A stretch of DNA of 12,121 bases from an uncultured Candidatus Saccharibacteria bacterium. GTDB taxonomy: Bacteria; Patescibacteriota; Minisyncoccia; Phycocordibacterales; Zambryskibacteraceae. The DNA lies in assembly GCA_964646785.1 (NCBI GenBank), contig CAZYGU010000024.1, positions 1 through 12,121 on the forward strand, read 5' to 3'. Both the position numbers and the translations under genes were made by a program. Shown here piece after piece: positions 559 through 11,710 of the stretch; position 1 is the stretch's first letter, and each line of letters starts with the position of its first letter. The notes beneath the pieces are model-generated. The model made no database searches, was not told the DNA's origin, and saw nothing but the letters and a program-made list of their open reading frames with translations.

Positions 559-594
559 TTCCAGTTTAGTACCCAGTCGTTAAGCCAAAACCTT

Positions 595-603
595 TGTTAT
601 ACT
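595..603 (+). promoter_or_regulatory. Extended -10 (TGtTATACT) ending 6 nt before the ATG at 610. The transcript is probably leaderless.
   Basis: TG at 595-596, TATACT at 598-603, ATG at 610-612. There is no SD sequence. Confidence 0.4.
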
Positions 604-609
604 CTACAT

Positions 610-1038
610 ATGACAACAATAAGCCCGTGGATTAATTTTAATGGTAACGCAGAAGAAGCGTTTACTTTTTATAAGTCAGTGTTTGGTGGTGAGTTTACAA
701 AAGTGCTTAGTTTAAAAGATCTCGCGAGTCCAGAATTCCCTGTTGATGAAAAGGATGAGAATAAAATCATGCAAATCATTTTGCCGATCAATGGTGAAAA
801 TGTATTGATTGGAAATGACGTGCCAGAATTTATGGGAAAAGTAAGTGAAAACGAAAACAGAAGTAAGATTTATGTAAACACGGATACCAAAGAAGAAGCT
901 GAGAAAATATTTACCGGACTTTCTGTAGGAGGACAAGTGGAGATGCCGTTCGGCGATAGCCCATGGGGTACGTACTTTGTTATGTTTAGAGACAAATACG
1001 GTATTGAGTGGACAATAGAATTCAACCCAAACAAATAG
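610..1038 (+). CDS. VOC-superfamily (glyoxalase/bleomycin-resistance fold) protein, PhnB/YjdN-like
   Basis: 142 aa. The N-terminal 'WINFNGNAEEAFTFYKSVFGG' and C-terminal 'PWGTYFVMFRDKYGIEWTI' motifs are typical of the PhnB-like VOC family. Confidence 0.85.
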   Translation: MTTISPWINFNGNAEEAFTFYKSVFGGEFTKVLSLKDLASPEFPVDEKDENKIMQIILPINGENVLIGNDVPEFMGKVSENENRSKIYVNTDTKEEAEKIFTGLSVGGQVEMPFGDSPWGTYFVMFRDKYGIEWTIEFNPNK

Positions 1039-1084
1039 AGTTGGAAATCCTTACCATCTTCCCAAACGATTAGCATCGTTAATT

Positions 1085-1093
1085 TGATAAAAT
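1085..1093 (+). promoter_or_regulatory. Extended -10 (TGaTAAAAT) ending 6 nt before the ATG at 1100. It sits inside the palindrome TTGATAAAATTATCAA (1084-1099).
   Basis: Same geometry as at 598-603 and 3278-3283. No SD sequence. Confidence 0.4.
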
Positions 1094-1099
1094 TATCAA

Positions 1100-1549
1100 A
1101 TGCAAAAACACAACTTTATTCTCTCAATCTTAAATGTGCTTGTTCTCTGCATCATAGTTGGTGCTGTTTCTATTTTCTTTGTATATAAGTCAGCTCTCAT
1201 TGGCTTCGTTTTAATTGGATTAAGTTTAGTGTGTCTCGCCTCTTTAACTCTATTTCGTATTAAAATTTCATCCACAAAACCTGATGTTATTTTTGGAATT
1301 ATTGATAACGGAATACTTGCTGTAATGGCAGTATACGGCGGAGAAATTGCTGGCGTTGCTGGTGCCATTGCAGGTGGAGTAGTTGGAAATGCAATCACAG
1401 ATGGTATCGCAGGAATATTTGAAGGCTACTGGGCAGAACATGCAAAAGATGACCACAGAACGATTCTTGGTTCAGCAGTTGGAAAAATGTCTGGATGTCT
1501 CCTTGGTGCAGGTATCGTACTCGCTGGTGCAAGCCTCATGAGTGTTTAA
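1100..1549 (+). CDS. Small integral membrane protein with glycine-zipper (GxxxG/AxxxG) repeats
   Basis: 149 aa. Two N-terminal hydrophobic helices, then 'GGEIAGVAGAIAGGVVGNAITDGIAGIFEG' and a C-terminal 'GCLLGAGIVLAGASLM' stretch. Low GC. Confidence 0.7.
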   Translation: MQKHNFILSILNVLVLCIIVGAVSIFFVYKSALIGFVLIGLSLVCLASLTLFRIKISSTKPDVIFGIIDNGILAVMAVYGGEIAGVAGAIAGGVVGNAITDGIAGIFEGYWAEHAKDDHRTILGSAVGKMSGCLLGAGIVLAGASLMSV

Positions 1550-1578
1550 ATGTTTCTCTATTCAACAAACTTACATGC

Positions 1579-1607
1579 TTGACGCACCTGTGACTTGGTG
1601 CTAATTT
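1579..1607 (+). promoter_or_regulatory. Sigma70-type promoter: TTGACG, 17-nt spacer, TGcTAATTT (extended -10)
   Basis: -35 at 1579-1584, TG at 1599-1600, -10 at 1602-1607. It marks the start of the first GC-rich segment. Confidence 0.5.
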
Positions 1608-1644
1608 TCACGCAGAAACACTCACCCTTTAGCGGAGTTCATCT

Positions 1645-1959
1645 ATGCTATATCCTGTTGGGTATCTGCAAAACACCGCCACGAATCGGTACCATCCAAT
1701 CTTTTTTCGCCCTGCACCTGCGCCGAGTGAACGAAGTTCGGACAGTATGCATCGATATCGATCCAGCGGTCACCATACCAATGGATTCGATACTCTTGAG
1801 CTAGCTCAAGAGTGGATCAAAACCTGGACAAGAACAAAACCCGACATGGAGGATACTGGACTCGTCTGGCTATGGAACGGAGAAGGTGTGCCTGCCCTAA
1901 TGGAGTGGTTCACCAAGAAAACCACAGTCGAGCATCGCGAAGCAGTTACAGCTGGATAA
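1645..1959 (+). CDS. Hypothetical W-rich 104-aa protein. Coding status is uncertain.
   Basis: GGAG at 1634-1637, 7 nt before the ATG. The C-terminal half shows a G-first codon bias. The N-terminal half is compositionally odd (R/S/H/P-rich). The ORF contains a 22-bp perfect palindrome. Alternative frames are also open in this GC-rich stretch. Confidence 0.4.
   Translation: MLYPVGYLQNTATNRYHPIFFRPAPAPSERSSDSMHRYRSSGHHTNGFDTLELAQEWIKTWTRTKPDMEDTGLVWLWNGEGVPALMEWFTKKTTVEHREAVTAG
1792..1813. repeat. 22-bp perfect palindrome ACTCTTGAGCTAGCTCAAGAGT
   Basis: Read directly from the sequence. It lies inside ORF 1645..1959. Confidence 0.9.
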
Positions 1960-1978
1960 ATCTTGCGTTACGAACACC

Positions 1979-2010
1979 TAGCCGATACTCACATGTATCG
2001 GCTATTTTTT
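1979..2010 (+). terminator. Rho-independent terminator: stem tagccgatac / gtatcggcta, loop tcacat, then TTTTTT
   Basis: 10-bp perfect stem followed by T6, 20 nt after the stop at 1959. Confidence 0.7.
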
Positions 2011-2049
2011 ACAATAAAAAATCACACCCAACTCCCTTCTCACCCATAC

Positions 2050-2078
2050 TTGACAAATGCTATTTATTCTTCTATGAT
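2050..2078 (+). promoter_or_regulatory. Sigma70-type promoter: TTGACA, 17-nt spacer, TATGAT
   Basis: Consensus -35 at 2050-2055 and -10 at 2073-2078. AGGAG RBS at 2111-2115, 7 nt before the ATG at 2123. Confidence 0.55.
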
Positions 2079-2122
2079 AAATTTCAGCAGTTCTTCTTCA
2101 ACACAAACACAGGAGCTCGATC

Positions 2123-2782
2123 ATGCGAGAGAGTGTCTACGAACGCTATGGTGAGGACACCATGACACGTGGTGCGTTTTACTTCATCATCGGCTCGGTA
2201 CTCACGTACGGGTTCGTGGCAACCTACATTGCTTCGACCATGTCTGCGAACTGGATTCCGAGCGGATGGGCTATTTTGCTCGTCGGTTTGGGACTACCGA
2301 TTCTTGGGATTCTCTTGAGTGCTTCGAGCGGAAACCCGTTTCTCTCGTTCGTGGGTTTCAACCTCGTCGTCATTCCATTCGGACTGATCCTAGGACCCGT
2401 GCTTCAGCTATACCACATCGGACAACCGGGTGTTGTCGCAAAGGCTGCGACACTCACTGCGTGCGTCACTGGTGTGATGGCACTGTCTGGCACAATGTTC
2501 CCGAACTTCTACAAGTCGATCGGAGGTGCCCTCTTTGGTGCTCTCACGGCACTCGTCATCGTCAGTGTGGCGTCAATATTCATTCCGGCTCTTGCTGGAT
2601 TCACTGTGATCCACTACATTGCCGCGACCATCTTTGCGCTCTACATCGGATACGACATGTGGCGCGCAAGTGAGACTCCCGCTACGCTCGACAACGCAAT
2701 CGATGTGAGCGTCAGTTTGTATCTCGACATTCTGAACCTCTTTCTCCGGATTCTTTCCATTCTTGGAGATGCTGACGACTAA
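2123..2782 (+). CDS. Bax inhibitor-1 / YccA family (TMBIM-like) 7-TM membrane protein
   Basis: 219 aa with about seven hydrophobic helices. The C-terminal 'SLYLDILNLFLRILSILG' is the hallmark of the BI-1/YccA family. GC about 55%. Confidence 0.85.
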   Translation: MRESVYERYGEDTMTRGAFYFIIGSVLTYGFVATYIASTMSANWIPSGWAILLVGLGLPILGILLSASSGNPFLSFVGFNLVVIPFGLILGPVLQLYHIGQPGVVAKAATLTACVTGVMALSGTMFPNFYKSIGGALFGALTALVIVSVASIFIPALAGFTVIHYIAATIFALYIGYDMWRASETPATLDNAIDVSVSLYLDILNLFLRILSILGDADD

Positions 2783-2797
2783 CACAAGGAGAAAACC

Positions 2798-3172
2798 GTG
2801 AGCTCTGAATTCAAACAGTTCCTCGATACACTCAAGCGTTTAGGAATTGCACATGAGATGAACTGGCTGCCAAGCAAAGAGGAATGGCAACAGATTATCC
2901 TCGATGCGGGATACAACATTACCGCACTCGCGTGCACAGTGATCAGCGTCGGTGATATGGATTTCCTGTTCTGCAACTCATCTGTCATTTGGACTGATGA
3001 TGAACAGCCAATCGGTCCTTCTGGCCTTCTTCTTCTGTCTCGAAAAAAGTCAGGAGAGATCATCCCGCGAGTTCGATACAACGCAAGGGATGGCAGACAA
3101 GTGCCAAGTCAGAATCTTGATGCCATCAAGGCTCAATATCATCTGCAGGCTGAGACCTTGATGACCACCTGA
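2798..3172 (+). CDS. Hypothetical 124-aa protein with a GTG start, co-transcribed with the BI-1-family gene
   Basis: AAGGAG at 2786-2791, 6 nt before GTG 2798. The start lies 13 nt after the upstream stop. No recognisable family. Confidence 0.55.
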   Translation: MSSEFKQFLDTLKRLGIAHEMNWLPSKEEWQQIILDAGYNITALACTVISVGDMDFLFCNSSVIWTDDEQPIGPSGLLLLSRKKSGEIIPRVRYNARDGRQVPSQNLDAIKAQYHLQAETLMTT

Positions 3173-3188
3173 TGCAGTTTGAGTTATG

Positions 3189-3224
3189 AACCGCCTAGTA
3201 ACGAAAGTGAACGGCGGTTTTTTG
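3189..3224 (+). terminator. Probable intrinsic terminator: stem aaccgcc / ggcggtt, 17-nt loop, then TTTTTTGTTTG
   Basis: The hairpin starts 17 nt after the stop. The large loop lowers confidence. Confidence 0.45.
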
Positions 3225-3274
3225 TTTGCTAAAAGTTTATACAAAATATTTATCAATACTCTGTAGCTGAATTT

Positions 3275-3283
3275 TGCTATAAT
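3275..3283 (+). promoter_or_regulatory. Extended -10 (TGcTATAAT) ending 6 nt before the ATG at 3290. The transcript is probably leaderless.
   Basis: Consensus TATAAT at 3278-3283. No SD sequence before the ATG. Confidence 0.45.
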
Positions 3284-3289
3284 CCAAAA

Positions 3290-3874
3290 ATGACAGATAC
3301 CACATGGAAGGAATATTTCGAAAATACGAAAAATAGTAATCCGAGACCCTTACTTACTAAAGCAGTTAAGTTAGTGCAAAAAAAGAACGAGGCACTTGAT
3401 CTTGGATCAGGAGCGTTTAATGACGTACACTTTTTATTATCTACTGGCTTTAATCATATCGTAGCAGTTGATAAAGTATCTGTTGCAAACGATCTATTAA
3501 AAAAACTATTACCAACACAAGTTTCTTATGTAATTTCTCGATTTGAAGATTTTGATTTTATCAAGCAAAACTATGATTTGATTAACGCACAGTATTCCCT
3601 TCCATTTATTAATAAACATAGTTTTACAGATGTGTATAAAAAAATAATACAATCACTTAAATCCGGAGGAGTTTTTACTGGCCAGTTTTTTGGTGATAGA
3701 GATGAGTGGAATACAGGAATTAGTAATATGACCTTTCATACCAAAAATGAAGCCTTAGCTCTACTTAAAGGATTGAATGTTATTGAATTTACTGAAGAAG
3801 AGAAAAATGGGAATACCGCAGCAGGAAAACTTAAGCATTGGCATGTTTTTCACTTTATTGCAGTAAAAGAATAA
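3290..3874 (+). CDS. Class I SAM-dependent methyltransferase, TehB-like
   Basis: 194 aa. Motif I 'ALDLGSGAFNDV', and overall length and order similar to tellurite methyltransferase TehB. Low GC (about 35%). Confidence 0.8.
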   Translation: MTDTTWKEYFENTKNSNPRPLLTKAVKLVQKKNEALDLGSGAFNDVHFLLSTGFNHIVAVDKVSVANDLLKKLLPTQVSYVISRFEDFDFIKQNYDLINAQYSLPFINKHSFTDVYKKIIQSLKSGGVFTGQFFGDRDEWNTGISNMTFHTKNEALALLKGLNVIEFTEEEKNGNTAAGKLKHWHVFHFIAVKE

Positions 3875-3889
3875 AACACAAAAGAAAAA

Positions 3890-3912
3890 GGGCGACGGAA
3901 ATTCCGTCGCCC
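3890..3912. terminator. Bidirectional intrinsic terminator: gggcgacgg-aaatt-ccgtcgccc, with T-tracts on both strands
   Basis: Perfect 9-bp GC stem. The minus strand is followed by TTTTTCTTTTGTGTTTT and the plus strand by TTGTACAATTTT. It sits between the convergent MTase and flotillin genes. Confidence 0.75.
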
Positions 3913-3953
3913 TTGTACAATTTTAAACTGGAGAAACACTACTGCGCCAATGA

Positions 3954-5783
3954 TTAGGCAGCGGGAGAAAGTTCAGACCGCTTCTCGGCCTGGTCGCGAA
4001 TAAGATTCGCGAGCAGAACGTTGACGAGTCCACCGCTCTGACTACCGTCACCACCGCCCGCCATGATGCTCGGGACGATAGGAACCTGACTCTTCGAGAG
4101 AGAGTCGGCAACCTGAATCAACGCGTAGTTGTTCGGGTTGATTGCTTCACCCTTCTTCTTGAGAACGTCGGCTTCGGCGTTACCAATAGCCTGGATCTTT
4201 CCGGCTTCGGCAGTACCAGTGAGCGTCGTCACCTCAGCATCAGCCTTGGCGTTGATTGTCTTCGACTGCGCGTCACCTTCCGCTGTCTTCACCATGGCGG
4301 AAGCGTTGAACTCGGCGATTTGCACGCTCCGTTCGGCATCCACGACTCGAGCTTGCGTATCCGCAAGTGCACGAGCTTGCTGAAGTTCCTTGCGGACCCC
4401 TTCAGCTTGCCGCTGAGTTTCGTACGTTACTTGCTCCTGCTCAGCGATTTTTCGGTCTGTCAGTGTCTTCATCAGCTGTTCTGGCGGAACGATATCACCG
4501 ATCAAGGTGTTCACCGCACCGACATTGTATTCACCGAGAGCATCCGCAATTGCCTTGCGTGCTTCGGTCTGACGTGCGACTCGATTCTTCAGGAAGTCGA
4601 TCACATCGGAACCCTGTGCCGCGTTTCGGAAATAGTTACCGATCGTCGGTTCGAGTACCTGCGTGACGAGATTCGCCACGCTGCCGAATCGTGCGATAAC
4701 CTTAGGGGCATCGACGCTCGGGATGTGAATGATCTGACTAACATCGAGGTTGTAGGTAAAGCCGTCCGATGAACGAACAGTGATGCTTGAGAGCCGCTCA
4801 TCGAGCTTGTGGGCTTCGCTCTTTTCGTTTGCCCAGTTGAGCACCACGTTTGCCGTCGGGACAACTTCGATCTTGTGAGTGTGCGTATTGATAGGGTACT
4901 TTCCCGGGTCAAGCGGAGTTGCCCAAACACCCTTATTGCCACTTTCCACCAGATTACCGTGCTTGAAATCTGCGCCAGAAATATCGTCACCGTTATTTCC
5001 TACGTAGGAAATAACGACGCCGACATGCGCGATAGGTACTTCGGTCAGACTGATGCGCTCCACCGTAGCGAAGAGCGGGTTGATAAAGTATCGACCCGCG
5101 AGCATCACCTGTTCCTGAAGACCCTTGTAACCTCCACCGTTGATGAACGCCTGGGCATCCTGGAACATGTTATGTCCAGAAATTTCCTTACCGGCAATTT
5201 CACCACCAACAAGTGGTAAGCCTTCCTTGGTGGTGACGATGCCAACCATCTTGTCGGCGATATCAGTCTGCTCAGCATCTCTGACATCGAAAAGCTGAGT
5301 ATTGATTCGATACGTACCTGGCGGAATAACTGCCAGCTGCGGACCACGCTCGCCACCGTTCGTGAGAAATGCTCGCGCGTTCTGAAATGAATCACACGCA
5401 ACGGAGGTACCGAGAACACGACCAGCAGCCATGGGAATACCGTCTCGTGAATCCACGACGCCGATCATTCCCTCCTTGATGGTCACGAAATCTTCCTGCT
5501 CGACACTATACTGCCAAGGCCACAAAAAGTAGTGGACACCGGGAGCTAGTGTATCGGCCTGAATACCAGCTTCGCCGTTCAATGCGACGATCTTACCGTC
5601 AGGCAAGGTCCGATTCGATCCGAAAATCACAAACTTCTTGTTGACGATACCGATCGAGTCATTCGGAATGATGACCACACCGAAGATGCGCAGAACGAGC
5701 TTGTAGCCACCGAGAAGCAAGATGATCAGAACGATCCACCAGTACGACTTCACGAGCCCAAAGAAAAAGTCCAGAACGTCCAT
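3954..5783 (-). CDS. Flotillin/SPFH (band-7) family membrane protein, YqiK/FloT-like
   Basis: 610 aa. N-terminal TM helix (WWIVLIILLLGGYKLVLRIFGVVII), an SPFH core, and a C-terminal Ala/Glu/Gln-rich coiled coil. The true start is the ATG at 5781-5783 with AAGGAG 8 nt upstream. The track start at 5873 is a TTG inside the -35 box. Confidence 0.9.
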   Translation of the reverse strand: MDVLDFFFGLVKSYWWIVLIILLLGGYKLVLRIFGVVIIPNDSIGIVNKKFVIFGSNRTLPDGKIVALNGEAGIQADTLAPGVHYFLWPWQYSVEQEDFVTIKEGMIGVVDSRDGIPMAAGRVLGTSVACDSFQNARAFLTNGGERGPQLAVIPPGTYRINTQLFDVRDAEQTDIADKMVGIVTTKEGLPLVGGEIAGKEISGHNMFQDAQAFINGGGYKGLQEQVMLAGRYFINPLFATVERISLTEVPIAHVGVVISYVGNNGDDISGADFKHGNLVESGNKGVWATPLDPGKYPINTHTHKIEVVPTANVVLNWANEKSEAHKLDERLSSITVRSSDGFTYNLDVSQIIHIPSVDAPKVIARFGSVANLVTQVLEPTIGNYFRNAAQGSDVIDFLKNRVARQTEARKAIADALGEYNVGAVNTLIGDIVPPEQLMKTLTDRKIAEQEQVTYETQRQAEGVRKELQQARALADTQARVVDAERSVQIAEFNASAMVKTAEGDAQSKTINAKADAEVTTLTGTAEAGKIQAIGNAEADVLKKKGEAINPNNYALIQVADSLSKSQVPIVPSIMAGGGDGSQSGGLVNVLLANLIRDQAEKRSELSPAA

Positions 5784-5844
5784 GAGGGTTACTCCTTTTG
5801 AATTGTGATGGTACAGGCCTGGATTTCTCCAGTTCCCGAGGATT

Positions 5845-5873
5845 TTATTAGCATTTATTTGACAAAAAGTCAA
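5845..5873 (-). promoter_or_regulatory. Sigma70-type promoter for the flotillin gene: TTGACT, 17-nt spacer, TGcTAATAA
   Basis: On the minus strand, the -35 is at 5873..5868 and the extended -10 at 5850..5845. The leader is about 55 nt. Confidence 0.5.
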
Positions 5874-5894
5874 TCATATATCATTTGTGTAACA

Positions 5895-5924
5895 TTGACA
5901 GATAGCCAAATGACGTGATATACA
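5895..5924 (+). promoter_or_regulatory. Sigma70-type promoter: TTGACA, 18-nt spacer, TGaTATACA
   Basis: -35 at 5895-5900 and extended -10 at 5916-5924. GAGGTG RBS at 5964-5969 before the ATG at 5975. Confidence 0.5.
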
Positions 5925-5974
5925 TTTTCGAGATTCCTTTGTCCCTGTTCCCTTCCCACACGTGAGGTGTCGAT

Positions 5975-6763
5975 ATGTTACAAAAGCTTATTCAGATCTT
6001 CTTTGGAACACCGAAGAAGAAGTCAAAGCCACCAAGAAAAGTCTACAGCGCCATTTCACCAACTAGTACCTCATCTGAAGCCAATCGAGAAACTTCATCA
6101 CCCATCGATCATCTGCGGCAGATGAGTGAAAAGCAACTCGAGCAAAGACGAAAGCAGGATGCTGAAGAGGCGGCTCATCGCGATGAACTACGTGAGCAAC
6201 TCAGATCGGCAGCAGATTTCAGTGCCTGCATCGAAATTTATCATGAAGCTTACGCAATGAGAGAGGATGAAGGTATTAGTACACTAGCACTCGAAAAAGC
6301 TCTCGCTCTTGCGACTACAGCTGAAGAGTTCCAAGTAGTATACGACTCAGCTGGCGACAGTGATCTTGAGAAGAAGGCAGCTGAAAAGCAGGAGCAAGTG
6401 TTTCTCGAGCGAATTGATCGAGCAACTACCACTTCAGAATGCATCGACATCGAAAACGAAGCAGACAATGACTTCAATTTGGAGATCGATGCTGATGCTG
6501 TGGTGAAAAAAGCTCTTTCACTCGCAACAAGCGCAAGTGATTGTCGTATCATTCTCGAGGATCGGGATTTTGATGATCCTGAGGACAACACTCTTCTTCG
6601 TGAGATCTACGAAAAAATGGTTTTGTTCTTTACCACAGTTGATGAATGTGAAGAACTGTGGGACGAAGAAGGAACAGACAGTATCGCAGGAACACTAGCA
6701 ATTGTTCGTGCGGCGGAAATCATTCGTTCCCAGTACATCACCGATCATCTCGCTCGCGCATAA
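5975..6763 (+). CDS. Hypothetical highly acidic protein with five internal repeats of about 35 aa
   Basis: 262 aa. Basic N-terminus (KKKSKPPRK), then a D/E-rich body. Repeats: ADFSACIEIYHE / TTAEEFQVVYD / TTSECIDIENE / TSASDCRIILED / TTVDECEELWDE. Divergent from the flotillin gene. Confidence 0.6.
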   Translation: MLQKLIQIFFGTPKKKSKPPRKVYSAISPTSTSSEANRETSSPIDHLRQMSEKQLEQRRKQDAEEAAHRDELREQLRSAADFSACIEIYHEAYAMREDEGISTLALEKALALATTAEEFQVVYDSAGDSDLEKKAAEKQEQVFLERIDRATTTSECIDIENEADNDFNLEIDADAVVKKALSLATSASDCRIILEDRDFDDPEDNTLLREIYEKMVLFFTTVDECEELWDEEGTDSIAGTLAIVRAAEIIRSQYITDHLARA

Positions 6764-6783
6764 CGAAGCAGATATATACAAAA

Positions 6784-6820
6784 GCCACCGTTCAGTACGA
6801 ACGATGGCTTTTTTCTTTTC
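6784..6820. terminator. Bidirectional intrinsic terminator: gccaccgttc-agtac-gaacgatggc, then TTTTTTCTTTTC
   Basis: 10-bp stem with one mismatch. Plus-strand T-tract; minus-strand TTTTGTAT. Lies between the convergent acidic-protein and ftsX genes. Confidence 0.75.
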
Positions 6821-6825
6821 TTGTA

Positions 6826-7746
6826 TTAAACCTTTAGATATTTTCGTACAGCAAGGAAACTGGATATAGCACCGATGACGATACCAGAGAGCATAATAAT
6901 CCCAAATATCTGTGCAAAGTTGTGTGTGTAGTAATCAAACAAATTGATACCAATAATAGAGCTGTATTTTGCAACCCAATAGGTAATCGGATAAAAAAGC
7001 ATCAAGGTCAGTATCCCTGACACAGCGCCGTAAATCATACCAACAACAACAAACGGTCCTCTGACATACATTGCACTTGCTCCAACGAGTCTCATCACAG
7101 CAATTTCCTCTCGTGAAATATAGATAGCGAGACGAATTGTGTTAAAAGTAATAAGAACAGAAATACCAACAAGTACTAATGTAAAGATAGAACCAAGTTT
7201 TTCTGCAGCATTGATGATACGAGTAAGTTTGTCTATCGATTCCTTGTTTCGGAAATAATCGATGTTATCAATAATAGAAGAGCCATCTTTTGAAAGTACA
7301 GGTTTTGTTTGAAGGAAATCAGCAATTCCTTGGTACTGTGCTGGGTTTTTCGCTTTGATATTGAGTGATGCACCAAATGGATTATCTGATACTTCTTCAA
7401 GAGCTTGGATCGTTGAGTGATCGTTCTCGTGTCTTGTTTTGAAATCTTCGAGAACTTGTTCTCGTGAGGTATATACAACTGACTGCACTTCGGGTAGCCC
7501 TTCAAGCGTCTTTTGAAGCGAGAGAACATCATCTTCGTTTGCAGTAGTGACGAATGAAACACTAACATCAACTTTGTTACGAATTTCTTCAAGCCATGTA
7601 TGGAGTGTTGTTGATGTAAAAATAAGTGAACCAATCACAGACAATGTGATGATCATCACCAAGATAGAAGAAAGTGACACGAATGCATTTCGTGAAAAGT
7701 TAAAAAAACCACTTCGTATAATTCTTTTTACATTTGTCCAAACCAT
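6826..7746 (-). CDS. ftsX: Cell-division ABC transporter permease FtsX
   Basis: 306 aa. N-terminal TM, a periplasmic domain and three C-terminal TM helices. It lies immediately downstream of ftsE, with only 3 nt between them. Confidence 0.9.
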   Translation of the reverse strand: MVWTNVKRIIRSGFFNFSRNAFVSLSSILVMIITLSVIGSLIFTSTTLHTWLEEIRNKVDVSVSFVTTANEDDVLSLQKTLEGLPEVQSVVYTSREQVLEDFKTRHENDHSTIQALEEVSDNPFGASLNIKAKNPAQYQGIADFLQTKPVLSKDGSSIIDNIDYFRNKESIDKLTRIINAAEKLGSIFTLVLVGISVLITFNTIRLAIYISREEIAVMRLVGASAMYVRGPFVVVGMIYGAVSGILTLMLFYPITYWVAKYSSIIGINLFDYYTHNFAQIFGIIMLSGIVIGAISSFLAVRKYLKV

Positions 7747-7749
7747 ATG

Positions 7750-8439
7750 TTATATCGTATATCTTCCCTCTTTATCGTCACGTACAATCTTACCACTATC
7801 CATCGTTAGTACGCGACGTCCTAATGAATCAATAACTCCTTTGTTATGTGTTGTGAGGATAACTGTTGTTCCAAGATCGTTAATCTTTTTTAAAATTTGA
7901 ACAATCTCATATGTATTCACAGGATCAAGGTTACCCGTAGGCTCATCAGCAATAATAATGTCGGGCTGATTTACGATTGCTCGGGCAATAGCAACGCGCT
8001 GTTTCTCTCCACCTGAAAGTTCATTCGGAAAATTCCAAATTTTCTTTCCAAGATCAACAAGCTCAAGCACGTGAGGTACATCTGACTCGATTTCTTCATC
8101 GGTTCGTCCAGCGGCTTCCATAGAGAATGCAATATTTTCATATACATTCTTATCTGGGAGCAAACGAAAATCTTGGAATACGACTCCAATCTTTCGGCGA
8201 TATTCTGGAATGTCACGTGAACGAAGATTATGAATATCTGTTGAACCAAAAAAAACTTTACCTTCAGTCGGTTTATCTTCAGCGAGGATGAGTTTTACGA
8301 GAGTAGTCTTCCCTGCACCTGAGTGCCCTACAATAGAGACGAATTCCTGAGGTTCTATGGCAAAAGTAATGTCCTCAAGGGCGACAGATTCGTCTGGATA
8401 TACTTTTGAAACTTTATCGAAATAGATCATTGGTGTCAT
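7750..8439 (-). CDS. ftsE: Cell-division ABC transporter ATP-binding protein FtsE
   Basis: Walker A 'GHSGAGKTT', ABC signature 'LSGGEKQRVAIARA', Walker B 'IIIADEPTGNLD'. 229 aa. Confidence 0.95.
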   Translation of the reverse strand: MTPMIYFDKVSKVYPDESVALEDITFAIEPQEFVSIVGHSGAGKTTLVKLILAEDKPTEGKVFFGSTDIHNLRSRDIPEYRRKIGVVFQDFRLLPDKNVYENIAFSMEAAGRTDEEIESDVPHVLELVDLGKKIWNFPNELSGGEKQRVAIARAIVNQPDIIIADEPTGNLDPVNTYEIVQILKKINDLGTTVILTTHNKGVIDSLGRRVLTMDSGKIVRDDKEGRYTI

Positions 8440-8455
8440 TCAGTGTTACCTGACA

Positions 8456-8485
8456 ATTCTACCATAAAAAAAGCTTCTCTCTCAA
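8456..8485 (-). promoter_or_regulatory. Candidate ftsEX promoter: TTGAGA, 18-nt spacer, TAGAAT
   Basis: On the minus strand, the -35 is at 8485..8480 and the -10 at 8461..8456. It overlaps the U-tract of the upstream terminator. Confidence 0.35.
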
Positions 8486-8514
8486 ACAAAACCCCGCAAC
8501 TTTGCAGTTGCGGG
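8481..8514 (-). terminator. Intrinsic terminator: cccgcaact-ttgc-agttgcggg, followed on the minus strand by GTTTTGTTTG
   Basis: 9-bp stem with a tetraloop, 27 nt downstream of the 73-aa ORF stop. Confidence 0.65.
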
Positions 8515-8540
8515 ACCTTTCTTCTCACTTATAGAGAACA

Positions 8541-8762
8541 CTAACGGTCTTCTAATGCTTCGAACCCGTACATCTCACATTGCATGGGATACAGCTGTTC
8601 CCTCTCCTTTTCAGAGAGAGAGCCATACTTGAATTCGAATTCAGCTTTGAACAATCGGCTGGCCCATGTTCGTGCAACGGAGGTCACAACGACCATCGTG
8701 ACACCGAACGTGAGGAACAACATGACGAACAAATAGAAATTCTGTTCCGAACAAGAACCCAT
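8541..8762 (-). CDS. Hypothetical 73-aa single-TM peptide
   Basis: GGGGG RBS, its own promoter and its own terminator. TM 'FYLFVMLFLTFGVTMVVVTSV', then a charged tail. GC-rich. Confidence 0.45.
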   Translation of the reverse strand: MGSCSEQNFYLFVMLFLTFGVTMVVVTSVARTWASRLFKAEFEFKYGSLSEKEREQLYPMQCEMYGFEALEDR

Positions 8763-8798
8763 AATGCCCCCGAGTGAAGTGTGTACTGACTAAAAAAT

Positions 8799-8828
8799 AC
8801 TATATCACGAAAATGAGACTTCAGTCAA
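8799..8828 (-). promoter_or_regulatory. Sigma70-type promoter: TTGACT, 18-nt spacer, TGaTATAGT
   Basis: On the minus strand, the -35 is at 8828..8823 and the -10 at 8804..8799. It shares ACATTGACnGA-N11-CGTGATATA with the promoter at 5895-5924. Confidence 0.5.
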
Positions 8829-8846
8829 TGTCACTTATAATCTAAA

Positions 8847-9722
8847 TTACAGATTTTTTTCTGCTTCCAAAAATTCTTCGATATCTCCCTCGAGTACAGC
8901 ATCAATGTTTGCGGTTTCTGCATTTGTTCGGTGGTCTTTCACCATTTTATATGGATGCATAACATATGAACGAATTTGATTCCCCCATTCGATCTGAGTC
9001 GTCTTTGATACGTACATTCCCTTCTCTTGCGCGATTCTATCTTCTTCCATTTTCTTATACAGTTTTCCAGTCAGGATTGCGATTGCTTTTTCTTTATTTT
9101 GAGCTTGTGAACGTTCGCTCGTGACATGTGCAGATAGATTGGTCGGAACATGTATAACACGCACTGCCGTCTCACGTTTATTTACGTTTTGGCCACCAGG
9201 TCCACCGGATTTTGAAAGTTCAACACGGATATCAGATTCAGGAATATCAATCTCACCCGTTTTTTCAAATTTAGGAATTACTTCAACAAGCGAGAAGGAA
9301 GTGTGTCTTAGTTGTTTTGCATTAAAAGGTGAGATACGAACAAGACGATGTACTCCTGATTCGTTTTTTAGTGTGCCATATGCATCCTTGCCAGAAATTT
9401 CAATTGTTACATTACGATACCCTCCATGATCATTTTGATTTTCATGAAGAAGTGTTATTCCCCAGTTTCTCTTTTGAAAATATTTCATATACATCTGAAG
9501 AAGAATTGCTGAAAAATCTTCAGAATCATCACCCCCCGCACCAGAAAAAATTGTCATGATTGCATCACCTCTATCAAACTTTCCTACACCCGCTATCTCA
9601 TCTTTCAATGTTTGAATATCACGAATTGTTTTTTGTGCTTTTTCTTTATCATTCCAAAAATCAGCAGACATCATATCTGCCTCCATCTGTTCAAGTTGTT
9701 TTTGCTTTACTTCTTTGTCCAT
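8847..9722 (-). CDS. prfB: Peptide chain release factor 2 (compact form without a frameshift leader)
   Basis: GGQ motif (SGGPGGQNVN) and the RF2-specific SPF motif (RISPFNAK). 291 aa. It begins at the residue equivalent to E. coli RF2 position 27. Confidence 0.9.
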   Translation of the reverse strand: MDKEVKQKQLEQMEADMMSADFWNDKEKAQKTIRDIQTLKDEIAGVGKFDRGDAIMTIFSGAGGDDSEDFSAILLQMYMKYFQKRNWGITLLHENQNDHGGYRNVTIEISGKDAYGTLKNESGVHRLVRISPFNAKQLRHTSFSLVEVIPKFEKTGEIDIPESDIRVELSKSGGPGGQNVNKRETAVRVIHVPTNLSAHVTSERSQAQNKEKAIAILTGKLYKKMEEDRIAQEKGMYVSKTTQIEWGNQIRSYVMHPYKMVKDHRTNAETANIDAVLEGDIEEFLEAEKNL

Positions 9723-9745
9723 ATAATCTTAACGGTATAACGAAA

Positions 9746-9766
9746 GCCCGCTCTTGTGAAGCGGGC
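9746..9766 (-). other. GC hairpin (gcccgct-cttgtga-agcgggc) 23 nt upstream of the prfB start codon
   Basis: 7-bp GC stem. On the minus strand it is followed by TTTCGTTAT. Possible attenuator or 5'-UTR structure. Confidence 0.4.
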
Positions 9767-9951
9767 CGGAATGTACTGTGATAGTGGTAAGGGTGTTGAA
9801 GGTGTGGGTCAAAAAAATTGCTGTTTGTGGGTGAACGTCTCAAATGAGAACGATCGAGAAACTGAAAGGCAATTAAGATGACCAACCTTGCAACAACGAT
9901 ACTACTATCAATGTTCCGGGTTAATTATAGCAAGAAGACGCTTTCTGTCAA

Positions 9952-9981
9952 GAAAAAAGTGCTGAGCAATTGCTCAGCACT
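9952..9981 (-). terminator. Intrinsic terminator: 24-bp perfect palindrome agtgctgagcaattgctcagcact plus a T6 run on the minus strand
   Basis: It overlaps the stop codon of the 84-aa ORF at 9981-9983. Confidence 0.65.
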
Positions 9982-10235
9982 TACACCAAAGAAAGTTGAA
10001 ACTGCTGACTTTCAAGAGCGCTTCTTCGATCAGCCTCTTCGATCAACTCCTTATCTGAATAATCATCAAGGTCGATGCCGATCGGAACATGGATACGAGA
10101 CATCGCTGCTTCGAGAAGCGTTGATTCCTTGCTCCTCCGCATTGATATCCCACCAACATCATACCGCTGCCACAACTGCCTCATAAGCAACCGGGCGATT
10201 TCAACATCAGTAAGTGCCTCAACAGGTTTCTTCAT
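9981..10235 (-). CDS. Hypothetical 84-aa protein
   Basis: GAGGG RBS 5 nt before the ATG, its own terminator, GC about 50%. No recognisable family (MKKPVEALTDVEIARLLMRQLWQRYD...). Confidence 0.5.
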   Translation of the reverse strand: MKKPVEALTDVEIARLLMRQLWQRYDVGGISMRRSKESTLLEAAMSRIHVPIGIDLDDYSDKELIEEADRRSALESQQFQLSLV

Positions 10236-10270
10236 CGATCCCTCATGGTAAGAAGAAATGTTCTGTCACT

Positions 10271-10298
10271 AAATTACCATACTCTCAAAAAGTTACAA
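10271..10298 (-). promoter_or_regulatory. Candidate promoter: TTGTAA, 16-nt spacer, TGgTAATTT
   Basis: On the minus strand, the extended -10 is at 10279..10271. The -35 is weak. Confidence 0.35.
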
Positions 10299-10331
10299 AA
10301 AGGTGCCAGTTTCCCGAAGGAAACTGGCACC
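10291..10331 (-). terminator. Strong intrinsic terminator: 13-bp stem ggtgccagtttcc / ggaaactggcacc with a CGAA tetraloop, then a minus-strand TTTTTGTAACTTTTT
   Basis: Perfect hairpin at 10302-10331 with a U-tract at 10291-10301. It terminates the leftward tRNA transcript. Confidence 0.75.
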
Positions 10332-10536
10332 AACTGTTCGAACATCATCGACCATGACCCGAAGGTTCAAATGGATCGATAAGGTCACGGCTGGCAGCTG
10401 GGTAAAATCCCCCAACCATGCAGACCTGTGCCCCAAACAGTTACCCTTCCTTCAATCGTCACTGAAGAAAAGGTGGAACCAGTATGATATTTACAACTAA
10501 AGAAATCAAGGAGTCGTCTCACCTACTACGTTCGTG

Positions 10537-10609
10537 AGCCACCTCGCGGGATCGAACCGCGGACCCCCACTTTACGAAAGTGGTGCTCTACCAACTGAGC
10601 TAAGGTGGC
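10537..10609 (-). tRNA. tRNA-Thr (anticodon CGU)
   Basis: Cloverleaf: acceptor GCCACCT/AGGTGGC, D-arm GCTCAGTTGGTAGAGC, anticodon loop TTCGTAA, T-arm CGCGGTTCGATCCCGCG. No CCA is encoded. Confidence 0.85.
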
Positions 10610-10631
10610 AATAAAAACCAATCGCAATTTT

Positions 10632-10707
10632 TGGAGCCGTTGAGCAGGATTGAACTGCTGACCTCGTCATTACCAATGACGTGCTCTACCAACTGAGCTA
10701 CAACGGC
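10632..10707 (-). tRNA. tRNA-Thr (anticodon GGU), CCA encoded
   Basis: Acceptor GCCGTTG/CAACGGC, anticodon loop TTGGTAA, T-arm AGCAGTTCAATCCTGCT, 3' TCCA. Confidence 0.9.
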
Positions 10708-10711
10708 ATAT
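10684..10711. repeat. 28-bp direct repeat, copy 1 (tRNA-Thr(GGU) 5' end plus 4 nt upstream)
   Basis: Identical to 10812-10839: ctctaccaactgagctacaacggcatat. Confidence 0.9.
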
Positions 10712-10744
10712 TCGCACTAACAGTCACAAGTATTTTTTTACTAA

Positions 10745-10835
10745 AAAATCTCGCGACCCCTCCTCGCGCCGTCGCGCTCCGGCCTTGCGACTGGGCCCCA
10801 TCCCAGTCTCACTCTACCAACTGAGCTACAACGGC
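10745..10835 (-). pseudogene. Truncated tRNA-Thr(GGU) copy (acceptor 5' strand plus D-arm only) fused to a GC-rich hairpin element and a T-run
   Basis: The first 25 nt are identical to the tRNA-Thr(GGU) 5' end. They are followed by GAGACTGGGATGGGGCCCAGTCGCAAGGCCGGAGCGCGACGGCGCGAGGAGGGGTCGCGAGATTTTTT. There is no anticodon arm or T-arm. Confidence 0.5.
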
Positions 10836-10839
10836 ATAT
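10812..10839. repeat. 28-bp direct repeat, copy 2
   Basis: Identical to 10684-10711. Confidence 0.9.
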
Positions 10840-10861
10840 CACCCACCCAAACAGTTTCACC

Positions 10862-10890
10862 ATCATAGGGAATTTTGAATCATTTTGCAA
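10862..10890 (-). promoter_or_regulatory. Candidate tRNA-operon promoter: TTGCAA, 17-nt spacer, TATGAT
   Basis: On the minus strand, the -35 is at 10890..10885 and the -10 at 10867..10862. It is immediately downstream of the pyrF stop. Confidence 0.4.
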
Positions 10891-10900
10891 AACAAGAGTA

Positions 10901-11710
10901 TTATCTATTTTTTCCAGTAGACATTCGTATCTCTTCGCAGAGTTTCCTTGCTTCCTCCTCTGGATTTTTCGCAAAGATAATTCTCCGTGATGCATTAATA
11001 ATGAGGCCAAGACCATCTTTATTCAGGCCACTTTGTACTACACTTTTTATATTAATTCCCTCGTCACTTACACCAGGAACTAACAATGTCATCTCTTTAG
11101 AAATTTCTCGTACTTTTTTTATTTCCTCAGGATGAGGTGCTCCAACGACTAACATACAATTTCCATTTGTATTCCATTCACTAGTAACTCGCTCTGCAAT
11201 TGTTTGCCACAACGGTTTACCTTCAGAAAGAAGATTTTGAAATTCTTCTGCGCCTGTGTTTGAGGTACGACAAAGAATAATTGAGATCTTATCCTTTCTC
11301 TCAAGAAACGGTGCCATTGCCTCATGTCCCATATAAGGATGGAGTGTCACAGCATCAGCACCGAGCAGATCAAACGCGAATTCAGCATATCCAACATTTG
11401 TATTACTTGTATCTGCACGCTTTGCATCAAGGATAAGAAATATATTTGAGTGATACAAAGCAAGGTAATCAAAGGTCATTTTTAACTCACGAAGTCCCTG
11501 CTCCCCTCGTGCTTCATAAAATGCACTATTCAGTTTGTAAGCAGAAACATATGCATGAGTTTGTTCAATAATCCATGTGTTAAATTCAAACTGTGGAAAT
11601 GGTTTTTGCAAAAAACGTTCAGGAAGTTTTGAAAAATCTGCATCAAGCCCTACACATAGTAGTGAGTTTACTTTTTTTGCTCGGTTGTTGTACTTAATAA
11701 GAGCATTCAT
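10901..11710 (-). CDS. pyrF: Orotidine 5'-phosphate decarboxylase, type 2 (long form)
   Basis: 'LCVGLDA', 'LDAKRADTSNT', 'ADAVTLHPYMG', 'LVVGAP' and 'LLVPGV' match the type-2 ODCase motifs. 269 aa. Confidence 0.9.
   Translation of the reverse strand: MNALIKYNNRAKKVNSLLCVGLDADFSKLPERFLQKPFPQFEFNTWIIEQTHAYVSAYKLNSAFYEARGEQGLRELKMTFDYLALYHSNIFLILDAKRADTSNTNVGYAEFAFDLLGADAVTLHPYMGHEAMAPFLERKDKISIILCRTSNTGAEEFQNLLSEGKPLWQTIAERVTSEWNTNGNCMLVVGAPHPEEIKKVREISKEMTLLVPGVSDEGINIKSVVQSGLNKDGLGLIINASRRIIFAKNPEEEARKLCEEIRMSTGKNR

What the first reader, a model, noticed from the sequence alone, without database searches (positions are those of the whole stretch)
1560..10335. GC-rich cassettes with canonical sigma70/SD/terminator architecture interleaved among low-GC, leaderless housekeeping genes
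Seen directly: segments at about 1560-3230, 3915-6825, 8490-8830 and 9950-10335 run about 50-57% GC, against about 35-40% for ftsEX, prfB, pyrF, the MTase and the VOC gene. Every GC-rich unit is a tidy cassette. Each has a -35 TTGACn, an extended -10 (TGn), an AGGAG/GAGG RBS at 5-8 nt, one or two ORFs, and a perfect hairpin plus T-run. The low-GC genes lack SD sequences and -35 boxes, and several are leaderless. Two unrelated expression grammars alternating at gene scale point to foreign origin of the GC-rich genes. The alternatives are multiple insertions, an eroded island, or an engineered or chimeric assembly. The GC-rich gene set (flotillin, BI-1-like, acidic repeat protein, four small unknowns) is not a recognised operon or defence system, so it may be a novel, co-acquired membrane-associated system.
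Basis: partly seen in the sequence, partly recalled or inferred. Interest (0 to 1): 0.75.

Follow-up and report, generated by a model that had tools for sequence, protein, structure and literature searches.

The report
Foreign gene cassettes in a Parcubacteria chromosome
A small, low-GC genome of an uncultured ultra-small bacterium (Parcubacteria) has picked up several separate GC-richer genes that still carry donor-style promoter, ribosome-binding and terminator signals; this is ordinary horizontal gene transfer seen unusually clearly, not a new multi-gene system.

Summary
The GC mosaic is real. GC3 is 0.39-0.61 in seven genes against 0.22-0.36 in nine (p=9e-5), and codon usage is far from a host reference. 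The two expression grammars are also real. Shine-Dalgarno (SD) motifs precede 6/7 GC-rich genes and 0/9 low-GC genes, and low-GC genes often have a -10 box 6 nt before the ATG.

The contig is Parcubacteria/Patescibacteria. Its backbone, tRNA-Thr x2-prfB-ftsE-ftsX, is conserved in eight related species. None of those carries the SPFH, BI-1, hyp104, hyp124 or acidic genes nearby.

Seven independent metagenome assemblies reproduce the junctions, which argues against chimerism or engineering. They also reveal three haplotypes: with the methyltransferase, without it, and without methyltransferase+SPFH+acidic protein. All breakpoints lie at terminator T-runs.

The GC-rich genes are therefore several independent, moron-like acquisitions from SD-using, GC-richer donors. 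BI-1 and the acidic protein have Parcubacteria relatives. SPFH/YqiK is 66-74% identical to proteins in 60-70% GC genomes. hyp104 has relatives on giant-phage contigs.

They are not one co-acquired system; only SPFH plus the acidic Sel1/TPR-like protein behave as a unit. Low-GC genes (methyltransferase, pyrF) are also indels, and small73 and hyp84 have syntenic homologues. This is a known kind of event and of modest interest.

The parts
1579..2010 (+). hyp104 cassette: TTGACG(1579-1584)-17-TGcTAATTT(1602-1607), GGAG 1634-1637, ORF 1645-1959 (104 aa), terminator 1979-2004 plus T-run
   Evidence: Sequence. GC3 .46, codon bias .46. 41-44% identical homologues on two large viral contigs, 371 kb and 161 kb. 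Co-diverged with the backbone against L006.
2050..3224 (+). BI-1 + hyp124 two-gene unit: TTGACA-17-TATGAT (2050-2078), AGGAG 2111-2115, BI-1 ORF 2123-2782, AAGGAG 2786-2791, hyp124 ORF 2798-3172 (GTG start), terminator 3189-3224
   Evidence: Pfam Bax1-I 2.8e-26. The nearest homologues, 60-71% identical, are Parcubacteria/Patescibacteria proteins. hyp124 belongs to a small unannotated family of 56 clusters. GC3 .61 and .51.
3230..3879 (+). Low-GC methyltransferase cassette with host-type grammar: TGcTATAAT (3275-3283), 6 nt, ATG 3290; ORF 3290-3874. It has no terminator of its own.
   Evidence: Class I SAM methyltransferase. GC 31.8%, GC3 .22. Absent in L004 and L057, where 8 nt (ACATATAT) replace it. 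Present in L064-L066.
3888..3914 (.). Bidirectional terminator shared by the methyltransferase and SPFH genes
   Evidence: 12-bp stem with 8 GC pairs and T-runs on both strands.
3954..5873 (-). SPFH/YqiK-like flotillin gene: ORF 3954-5783 (609 aa), AGGAG 5796-5792, -10 TAATAA 5850-5845 with TGc, -35 TTGACT 5873-5868
   Evidence: Pfam Band_7 4.9e-27. 66-74% amino-acid identity to proteins in 60-70% GC genomes and in a Parcubacteria MAG. GC3 .59, codon bias .70. NJ tree. Two alleles about 10% apart in flanks that are 1-5% apart.
5895..6815 (+). Acidic Sel1/TPR-like helical-repeat protein: TTGACA 5895-5900, 18 nt, TGaTATACA -10 at 5919-5924, GAGG 5964-5967, ORF 5975-6763 (262 aa), terminator 6782-6815 (also serves ftsX)
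   Evidence: No Pfam hit. The family is limited to Parcubacteria (P0268 79%, P0269 30% from Zambryskibacteria). It lies adjacent to SPFH in L057, L002 and L030. AF2 model pLDDT 82, all-alpha repeats. Weak Sel1/TPR matches, top hit COA7 at E=0.03.
6826..8439 (-). Host backbone ftsX (6826-7746) and ftsE (7750-8439), with promoter TTGAGA-18-TGgTAGAAT at 8485-8456 and no SD
   Evidence: Pfam. Syntenic prfB-ftsE-ftsX in L005-L014.
8493..8828 (-). small73 cassette in the prfB-ftsE spacer: promoter TTGACT-18-TGaTATAGT (8828-8799), ORF 8541-8762 (73 aa, one TM segment), terminator 8514-8493
   Evidence: GC3 .60, codon bias .61. The spacer is about 50 bp in L007, L010 and L012. A 52% identical, 83-aa homologue sits at the same site in L005.
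8847..9722 (-). Host backbone prfB (291 aa, no frameshift)
   Evidence: Pfam PCRF + RF-1.
9957..10298 (-). hyp84 cassette: -35 TTGTAA 10298-10293, TGgTAATTT -10 at 10276-10271, GAGGG 10244-10240, ORF 9981-10235 (84 aa), terminator 9982-9957
   Evidence: Absent in L005, where terminator and next promoter abut. A 38% identical homologue sits at the same site in L007. GC3 .47.
10536..10707 (-). tRNA-Thr(CGU) and tRNA-Thr(GGU), backbone markers
   Evidence: ARAGORN and Rfam. Conserved upstream of prfB in relatives.
10901..11710 (-). pyrF: low-GC, promoterless, and itself a gene-scale indel
   Evidence: Pfam OMPdecase. In L005 the small72 stop abuts the homologue of window 10893.

Best explanation
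**What it is.** The window is a complete 12.1-kb contig of a low-GC (about 38%) Parcubacteria/Paceibacteria chromosome.
- Its resident genes are expressed without Shine-Dalgarno sequences. Many have an extended -10 box placed 6 nt before the ATG, which implies leaderless mRNAs.
- Self-contained accessory transcription units have been inserted between these genes, always in the gap between one gene's intrinsic terminator and the next promoter.
- Each unit brings its own -35/-10 promoter, a 5' UTR with an SD, one or two ORFs and a terminator. Each keeps a GC3 and codon usage 15-35 points above the host's.

**How many events.** The units are independent acquisitions of different age and source:
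1. hyp104-BI-1-hyp124 is older and has co-diverged with the backbone.
2. SPFH/YqiK plus the acidic Sel1/TPR-like protein form a 2.9-kb module that is still polymorphic and is exchanged between strains.
3. small73.
4. hyp84.
5. A low-GC, host-grammar methyltransferase later dropped into the island.

**Donors (inferred).** They are mostly GC-richer, SD-using Patescibacteria, with the wider mobilome behind them. SPFH ultimately comes from high-GC diderm bacteria, and hyp104 has relatives in giant phages.

**Insertion mechanism (inferred, not shown).** DNA uptake by natural competence, followed by homologous or illegitimate recombination. No integrase, transposase, inverted repeats or target duplications are present, and all breakpoints are at T-runs.

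**Function (inferred).** BI-1 (YccA-like) and SPFH are membrane-quality-control and scaffold proteins. The acidic repeat protein is a likely cytosolic partner of SPFH.
For: - **Host identity and backbone.** Searches identify the relatives and the conserved backbone.
- **GC3 and codon usage.**
- **Two grammars.** SD is tied to GC-rich genes in the window, L006 and L015 (Fisher p=1.5e-7).
  - The host clade has SD at 7% of 91 genes (background 6%) and a -10-abutting-ATG motif at 33% (background 11%).
  - GC-richer loci have SD at 35-42%.
  - L002 Parcubacteria has SD at 11/15 genes.
  - Loss of the anti-SD in a Parcubacteria subgroup is published (PMC9297842).
- **Haplotypes and breakpoints.** Three haplotypes with exact breakpoints at terminator T-runs.
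- **hyp84 and pyrF.** Indels relative to L005.
- **Decoupled history of SPFH/acidic262.** Third-position divergence is 23-27%, against 8-13% in flanks. In L004 it is 23% in SPFH against 1.6% in hyp124.
- **SPFH source.**
  - In the tree the window clusters with a 67%-GC contig whose gene GC equals its flank GC.
  - Low-GC recipients are scattered through the tree.
  - SPFH exceeds its flank GC by 6-16 points in most of the low-GC recipient loci.
- **Other relatives.** BI-1 and acidic262 have Parcubacteria relatives. hyp104 has relatives on viral contigs.
- **No mobility signatures.** No cassette-flanking repeats.
- **Literature.** HGT islands in Patescibacteria, mostly transferred within the phylum, are documented (PMC12455944).
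Against: - No direct donor is identified. The best non-self hits are only 71-74% (SPFH) and 71% (BI-1) identical.
- small73 and hyp84 have homologues at the same positions in related species, so they are not recent arrivals. Their persistent GC excess is not explained by simple amelioration.
- acidic262 deviates only weakly in codon usage.
- The direction of each indel (gain or loss) cannot be polarised. T-run microhomology would equally fit deletions.
- Promoter calls rest on motif matches that are not enriched overall.
- Leaderless starts and actual expression are not shown.
- The host 16S 3' end is not on the contig.
- The NJ tree is rough.
Confidence: 0.78

Rival explanations
1. One co-acquired, novel membrane-associated system (flotillin + BI-1 + acidic repeat protein + small unknowns) that arrived as a single island and was later eroded.
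For: The genes sit within 5.3 kb (1560-6825). Two encode membrane proteins. SPFH and acidic262 do co-occur in three unrelated contexts. No known system matches.
Against: - L006 carries hyp104-BI-1-hyp124 without SPFH/acidic262.
- BI-1 homologues in L015 and L016 lack hyp104 and hyp124.
- No SPFH locus outside this species (40 metagenomic loci plus L002/L003) has BI-1, hyp104 or hyp124 nearby.
- Divergence of the two blocks differs 2-15 fold.
- GC3 ranges from .39 to .61.
- The acidic homologue in Zambryskibacteria is not next to an SPFH gene.
Confidence: 0.05
2. Assembly chimera, contamination or an engineered construct that joins DNA from two organisms.
For: Sharp GC steps at gene boundaries. 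Textbook promoter, RBS and terminator modules.
Against: Seven contigs from other assemblies and samples span every GC junction at 90-100% identity with natural polymorphism: ENA ERZ4198739 and ERZ4216102; Logan SRR31968663, SRR25018320, SRR25018341, SRR12487046 and SRR12487035.
Confidence: 0.02
3. Remnant of a prophage or integrative element. The cassettes would be true phage morons, or cargo of an element integrated at a tRNA gene (tRNA-Gln or tRNA-Thr), with the mobility genes since lost.
For: - The architecture equals the definition of a moron: own promoter and terminator, and deviant GC (PMC3594210).
- hyp104 has homologues on viral contigs, and SPFH hits phrog_200.
- In L006 the block hyp124..VOC lies between ftsX and tRNA-Gln, whereas in L005 tRNA-Gln follows ftsX by 64 bp.
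- A 28-nt perfect duplicate of the 5' half of tRNA-Thr lies at 10812-10839.
Against: - There are no integrase, structural, replication or lysis genes.
- No direct repeats flank any cassette.
- The cassettes are separated by housekeeping genes that are syntenic in eight species.
- The tRNA-Thr half-copy is also present in L005 and is not at a cassette border.
Confidence: 0.1
4. The GC-rich genes are long-resident genes of the lineage. Their composition and SD would be kept by selection, for example for expression level, mRNA structure or amino-acid content.
For: small73 and hyp84 have syntenic homologues in related species. SPFH is GC-richer than its flanks in most of the low-GC genomes sampled. 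hyp104-BI-1-hyp124 co-diverged with the backbone.
Against: - The excess is at third codon positions.
- Housekeeping genes, including prfB and ftsE, are low-GC and SD-less.
- The genes are absent from close relatives and polymorphic among strains.
- The 66-74% amino-acid identity of SPFH across phyla is incompatible with vertical descent.
- One SPFH in a 26% GC background has GC3 of .20, so there is no intrinsic constraint.
Confidence: 0.05

Closest known systems
Horizontally acquired genomic islands or islets in Patescibacteria (Gios et al. 2025, mSystems, PMC12455944)
   Same: Compositionally deviant, strain-variable accessory genes in streamlined CPR genomes. Donors are mostly other Patescibacteria. 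Competence-mediated uptake is proposed.
   Different: Here the units are single-gene to two-gene cassettes scattered between housekeeping genes rather than one contiguous island. They have no mobility genes and carry a donor-type translation signal (SD) in an SD-free host.
Phage morons (Hendrix; Cumby et al. 2012, PMC3594210)
   Same: Autonomous promoter-gene-terminator units with GC content different from their neighbours, inserted between conserved syntenic genes and recognised by comparison with relatives that lack them.
   Different: The recipient is a bacterial chromosome backbone (tRNA-prfB-ftsEX), not a prophage, and no phage genes are nearby.
SPFH/flotillin YqiK family (E. coli YqiK, usually paired with the NfeD-like YqiJ) and BI-1/YccA family
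   Same: Band_7 and Bax1-I domains score above the Pfam thresholds. Sources label the homologues 'membrane protein YqiK' and 'FtsH-binding integral membrane protein'.
   Different: There is no NfeD partner. Instead, a Parcubacteria-specific acidic Sel1/TPR-like protein lies next to the SPFH gene in three contexts. NCBIfam equivalog models (FloT, HflC, YccA) score far below their cut-offs.
Parcubacteria subgroup lacking the 16S anti-SD motif (Tsurumaki et al. 2022, RNA, PMC9297842)
   Same: The resident genes of this clade show no SD enrichment, which is what that loss would predict.
   Different: The 16S rRNA of this organism is not on the contig, so its membership of that subgroup is untested.

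Membership tests
Classical genomic island / integrative element | Deviant base composition and codon usage | tested here: met
Classical genomic island / integrative element | Variable presence among close relatives | tested here: met
   Three haplotypes. Absent in eight related species.
Classical genomic island / integrative element | Integrase, transposase or other mobility gene | tested here: not met
   Pfam, NCBIfam and PHROG scans of all ORFs found none.
Classical genomic island / integrative element | Flanking direct repeats or insertion at a tRNA 3' end | tested here: not met
   No repeats flank any cassette, and junctions lie at terminator T-runs. tRNA-Gln adjoins the far end of the block only in L006.
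Phage moron | Own promoter and intrinsic terminator, with GC unlike the neighbours | tested here: met
   By sequence motifs only. Transcription was not measured.
Phage moron | Located within a phage or prophage genome | tested here: not met
   The neighbours are ftsEX, prfB, pyrF and tRNAs, which are syntenic in relatives.
Integron cassette array | attC recombination sites, an intI integrase, and promoterless co-oriented cassettes | tested here: not met
   The cassettes have their own promoters and lie on both strands. No GTTRRRY core is seen at the junctions, and there is no integrase.
SPFH/Band 7 superfamily | Band_7 domain above the Pfam gathering score, with an N-terminal membrane anchor | tested here: met
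   PF01145 scores 95.5 bits against a cut-off of 23.6. A hydrophobic N-terminus is visible in the translation.
SPFH-NfeD operon (YqiJK/QmcA-YbbJ type) | Adjacent NfeD-family gene | tested here: not met
   No NfeD domain in any neighbour.
BI-1 / YccA (Bax1-I) family | Bax1-I domain above the Pfam gathering score, covering the full length | tested here: met
   PF01027 scores 93 bits against a cut-off of 34.1, covering profile positions 10-207 of 207. The YccA equivalog is not met: 22 bits against 353.
Known anti-phage defence systems (PADLOC-DB 2.0) | Match of any component to a defence-system model | tested here: not met
   The only match is a weak methyltransferase hit to mad2 (5e-6). There is none for the GC-rich genes.
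Leaderless-mRNA gene organisation | Transcription start at or within a few nt of the start codon | not testable with these tools
   Only the proxy was measured. TAnnnT lies 5-8 nt before the ATG at 33% of host-clade genes against 11% background, and at VOC, memb149, the methyltransferase and small72 in the window.

The most novel reading that the evidence does not exclude
In an SD-free Parcubacteria lineage, possibly one lacking the anti-SD, gene gain proceeds mainly by insertion of 'moron-like' promoter-SD-gene-terminator cassettes into terminator-to-promoter gaps. No dedicated mobility machinery is involved. The fossil SD then marks the direction of transfer from anti-SD-retaining lineages. 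Within this flux, the SPFH + acidic Sel1/TPR-like pair is a self-contained membrane-scaffold module circulating among Parcubacteria.
Probability: 0.3. Interest if true: 0.5.

Novelty: new member of a known kind. Interest (0 to 1): 0.33.

Why it matters
- It is a clean, strain-resolved example of how an ultra-small, streamlined symbiont genome gains genes one transcription unit at a time.
- It shows that translation-initiation grammar (SD-led against SD-less or leaderless) can serve as a second marker of foreign origin in Patescibacteria, independent of composition.
- It raises a testable question: can ribosomes of SD-free Parcubacteria still use the SD of acquired genes?
- It nominates a recurrent SPFH + Sel1/TPR-like pair for study of membrane organisation in bacteria that cannot make their own lipids.
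- It does not reveal a new class of system.

Tried and rejected
- **Chimeric or engineered assembly.** Rejected, because seven independent assemblies span the junctions.
- **Single co-acquired system.** Rejected by the haplotypes, the lack of co-occurrence elsewhere and the unequal divergence.
- **Integron, IS, MITE or att-flanked element.** No flanking repeats, attC-like cores or mobility genes.
- **Defence system.** PADLOC was negative.
- **Prophage.**
  - PHROGs gave only a generic SPFH hit (phrog_200) and a methyltransferase hit.
  - Viral-contig scans were negative for BI-1, hyp124, hyp84 and small73.
  - They were positive only for hyp104 (two large viral contigs, 41-44%) and for one distant SPFH at 53%.
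- **Rfam.** Nothing beyond the three tRNAs at gathering or E<1 thresholds, apart from spurious terminator-driven hits.
- **Polarising AT-ward amelioration.** Third-position differences between SPFH alleles show no directional signal (62 against 73).
- **Exact look-up of the SPFH protein.** It returned no contig, although the protein is in the clustered collection.
- **Fold search for the acidic protein.** It gave only weak Sel1/TPR-like matches (E >= 0.03), so no specific function could be assigned.

Full report
**1. Observation**

A 300-bp GC profile and per-gene statistics confirm a gene-scale mosaic.
- Seven ORFs have GC 45.5-53.3% and GC3 .39-.61: hyp104 1645-1959, BI-1 2123-2782, hyp124 2798-3172, SPFH 3954-5783(-), acidic262 5975-6763, small73 8541-8762(-) and hyp84 9981-10235(-).
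- Nine ORFs have GC 31.8-39.8% and GC3 .22-.36: hyp138, VOC, memb149, the methyltransferase, ftsX, ftsE, prfB, pyrF and small72. Mann-Whitney p=8.7e-5.
The 50-57% figure is reached only inside BI-1 and SPFH.
- Codon usage was measured against an independent host reference, the genes of relative L005. It is far outside the length-matched null for SPFH (.70), BI-1 (.64), small73 (.61) and hyp124 (.54). It is moderately outside for hyp84 and hyp104, and only marginally for acidic262.

The expression signals are as described.
- TTGACn -35 boxes and TGn-extended -10 boxes lie upstream of most GC-rich units.
- SD motifs lie 4-8 nt before 6 of 7 GC-rich starts and before none of 9 low-GC starts.
- Strong hairpin+T-run terminators sit at each unit's end, and terminator-like sites are enriched: 23 against 9.5 +/- 3.2 in shuffles.
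- Low-GC genes VOC, memb149, the methyltransferase and small72 have TAnnnT exactly 6 nt before the ATG.

- Promoter-like sites overall are not above chance.
- Two terminators are shared bidirectionally with low-GC genes.
- ftsE has a recognisable -35.
- A 12/12 consensus promoter lies upstream of prfB.

**2. Whose genome it is**

The window is an entire NCBI contig.
- ftsX finds relatives only in Parcubacteria, Paceibacterota and 'Saccharibacteria'-labelled MAGs.
- In these relatives and in contig L005, the order tRNA-Thr(GGU)-tRNA-Thr(CGU)-prfB-ftsE-ftsX is conserved, with short spacers.
- None of the eight species-level relatives has SPFH, BI-1, hyp104, hyp124 or acidic262 within 10 kb.

**3. 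Not an artefact**

Independent assemblies from other samples reproduce every junction.
- L001 covers 8501-10648 at 99.5% identity.
- L006 covers 583-3229 and 6799-10591 at about 95%.
- L057 covers 2186-3229 and 3878-9167.
- L004, L064 (1960-5779, 99.9%), L065 and L066 cover the rest.

**4. Modular, independent histories**

Three haplotypes exist at the same locus.
- H1 is BI-1-hyp124-MTase-SPFH-acidic-ftsX (window, L064-L066).
- H2 lacks the methyltransferase (L004, L057).
- H3 lacks window 3230-6798 entirely, so hyp124's terminator abuts ftsX (L006).
- L057 (H2) and L006 (H3) are 98.5-98.9% identical in their flanks. The 2.9-kb SPFH+acidic262 module is therefore a recent gain or loss.

The breakpoints are clean and lie at terminator T-runs...GGCGGTTTTTTGTTTGC| and ...GATGGCTTTTTTCTTTTCTTGT|.

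Other indels relative to L005:
- The hyp84 cassette is missing, and there a terminator directly precedes the next promoter.
- pyrF is missing.
- small73 occupies a prfB-ftsE spacer that is about 50 bp in L007, L010 and L012.

Divergence is decoupled between blocks.
- Between the window and L006/L057, third-position differences are 8-15% in backbone genes, the hyp104-BI-1-hyp124 block, small73 and hyp84.
- They are 23-27% in SPFH and acidic262.
- In L004, hyp124 differs by 1.6% while the adjacent SPFH differs by 23%.

So the set is not one co-acquired system, and the SPFH/acidic module moves between lineages.

GC does not define what is variable. The methyltransferase has the lowest GC and host-type leaderless grammar, yet it is an insertion inside the island. 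small73 and hyp84 have homologues at the same positions in L005 and L007.

**5. Sources**

- **SPFH.** It is a YqiK-like flotillin, 66-74% identical to proteins in many phyla.
  - In high-GC contigs its GC equals that of the flanks.
  - In most of the low-GC contigs sampled it exceeds the flank by 6-16 points.
  - A rough NJ tree scatters the low-GC recipients among high-GC lineages. It groups the window with a 67%-GC contig (L003) and a Parcubacteria MAG (L002).
- **BI-1.** Its closest relatives, 60-71% identical, are Parcubacteria/Patescibacteria proteins.
- **acidic262.** Its family is confined to Parcubacteria. It lies next to SPFH in L057, L002 and L030, but not in Zambryskibacteria. Its model (pLDDT 82) is an all-alpha repeat with weak Sel1/TPR similarity.
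- **hyp104.** It has 41-44% identical homologues on two large viral contigs, one of which is 59% GC.
- **hyp124.** It belongs to a small unannotated family.
- No defence-system, integron, IS or prophage signature is present.

**6. The two grammars map onto lineages**

- In 91 genes of low-GC relatives, SD motifs occur at 7% (background 6%; 2% for GC3<.40). The -10-abutting-ATG motif occurs at 33% (background 11%).
- In GC-richer Patescibacteria-like loci, SD occurs at 35-42%. L002 has GAGG-type SDs at 11/15 genes.
- Another contig from the same metagenome as L005 (L015) shows the same link between GC-rich genes and SD.
- Pooled, the counts are 11/13 against 1/30, Fisher p=1.5e-7.
- The literature reports that the anti-SD motif was detected in only 48% of Parcubacteria 16S rRNAs, the lineages without it forming a subgroup (PMC9297842). 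It also reports that HGT islands, mostly transferred within the phylum, are common in Patescibacteria (PMC12455944).

**7. Conclusion**

The finding is real, and its core inference of foreign origin for the GC-rich genes is largely right.
- The structure is best described as several independent, moron-like cassettes (PMC3594210).
- They were acquired from SD-using, GC-richer donors into terminator-promoter gaps of an SD-free Parcubacteria chromosome.
- The insertion mechanism (competence plus recombination) and the functions are inferred, not shown.
- It is a new example of a known kind of event, and a novel system is not supported.

Noticed in passing
window 10741-10890 (- strand): A perfect 28-nt copy of the 5' end of tRNA-Thr(GGU) lies at 10812-10839, matching 10684-10711. 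It is fused to GC-rich hairpins and a terminator (10768-10752) and is preceded by TTGCAA-17-TATGAT (10890-10862). The 106-nt stretch folds at -42.3 kcal/mol (z=-4.0), and the element is conserved in L005. It may be a tRNA-derived small RNA or a leader of the tRNA-Thr operon.
   Followed up: partly
window 9745-9951 (- strand): A 12/12 consensus promoter (TTGACA-16-TGcTATAAT, 9951-9924) is followed by about 150 nt without an ORF and a terminator hairpin (9767-9745) just upstream of prfB. The unit is conserved in L006 and L005 but not in more distant relatives, and it has no Rfam match. It is a candidate small RNA.
   Followed up: partly
window 10335-10535 (- strand): A stretch of about 200 nt and 50% GC lies between tRNA-Thr(CGU) and a 13-bp-stem terminator (10331-10302). 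It is roughly 80% conserved in L005 with a 4-nt indel, which argues against coding. It is a candidate ncRNA co-transcribed with the tRNAs and has no Rfam match.
   Followed up: partly
window 8847-9722 (- strand): prfB encodes only 291 aa (PCRF + RF-1 domains) and shows no programmed +1 frameshift site or N-terminal extension. Relatives have the same length, with a TGnTATAC -10 box 6-11 nt before the ATG.
   Followed up: partly
L015 1-7206 and L005 11702-12007: Other contigs from a related organism show the same gene-scale mosaic. L015 alternates genes of 50-55% GC with SD and genes of 34-40% GC without it. L005 has a lone 50%-GC, 101-aa ORF among 30%-GC genes. The phenomenon is therefore general in this clade.
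   Followed up: partly
L006 6414-6485; L005 10985-11058: tRNA-Gln(CUG) follows ftsX by 64 bp in L005. In L006 it lies beyond hyp124-BI-1-hyp104-memb149-VOC and on the opposite strand. In more distant relatives pyrG and other genes lie between ftsX and tRNA-Gln. The ftsX to tRNA-Gln interval is a rearrangement and insertion hot spot.
   Followed up: partly
L019-L026, L034, L042 (metagenomic SPFH loci): In most of the low-GC contigs sampled that carry this YqiK-like SPFH gene, the gene is 3-16 GC points above its flanks. Examples are L025 at 57 against 41% and L023 at 60 against 47%. This suggests repeated transfer of the family from high-GC donors into low-GC genomes.
   Followed up: partly
window 5975-6763: The acidic protein has five repeats of about 36 aa with a conserved T-T-x-x-E-C ... 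A-L-x-K-A-L-x-L-A signature. It also has a basic, disordered N-terminus (residues 1-47, pLDDT below 50).
   Followed up: partly
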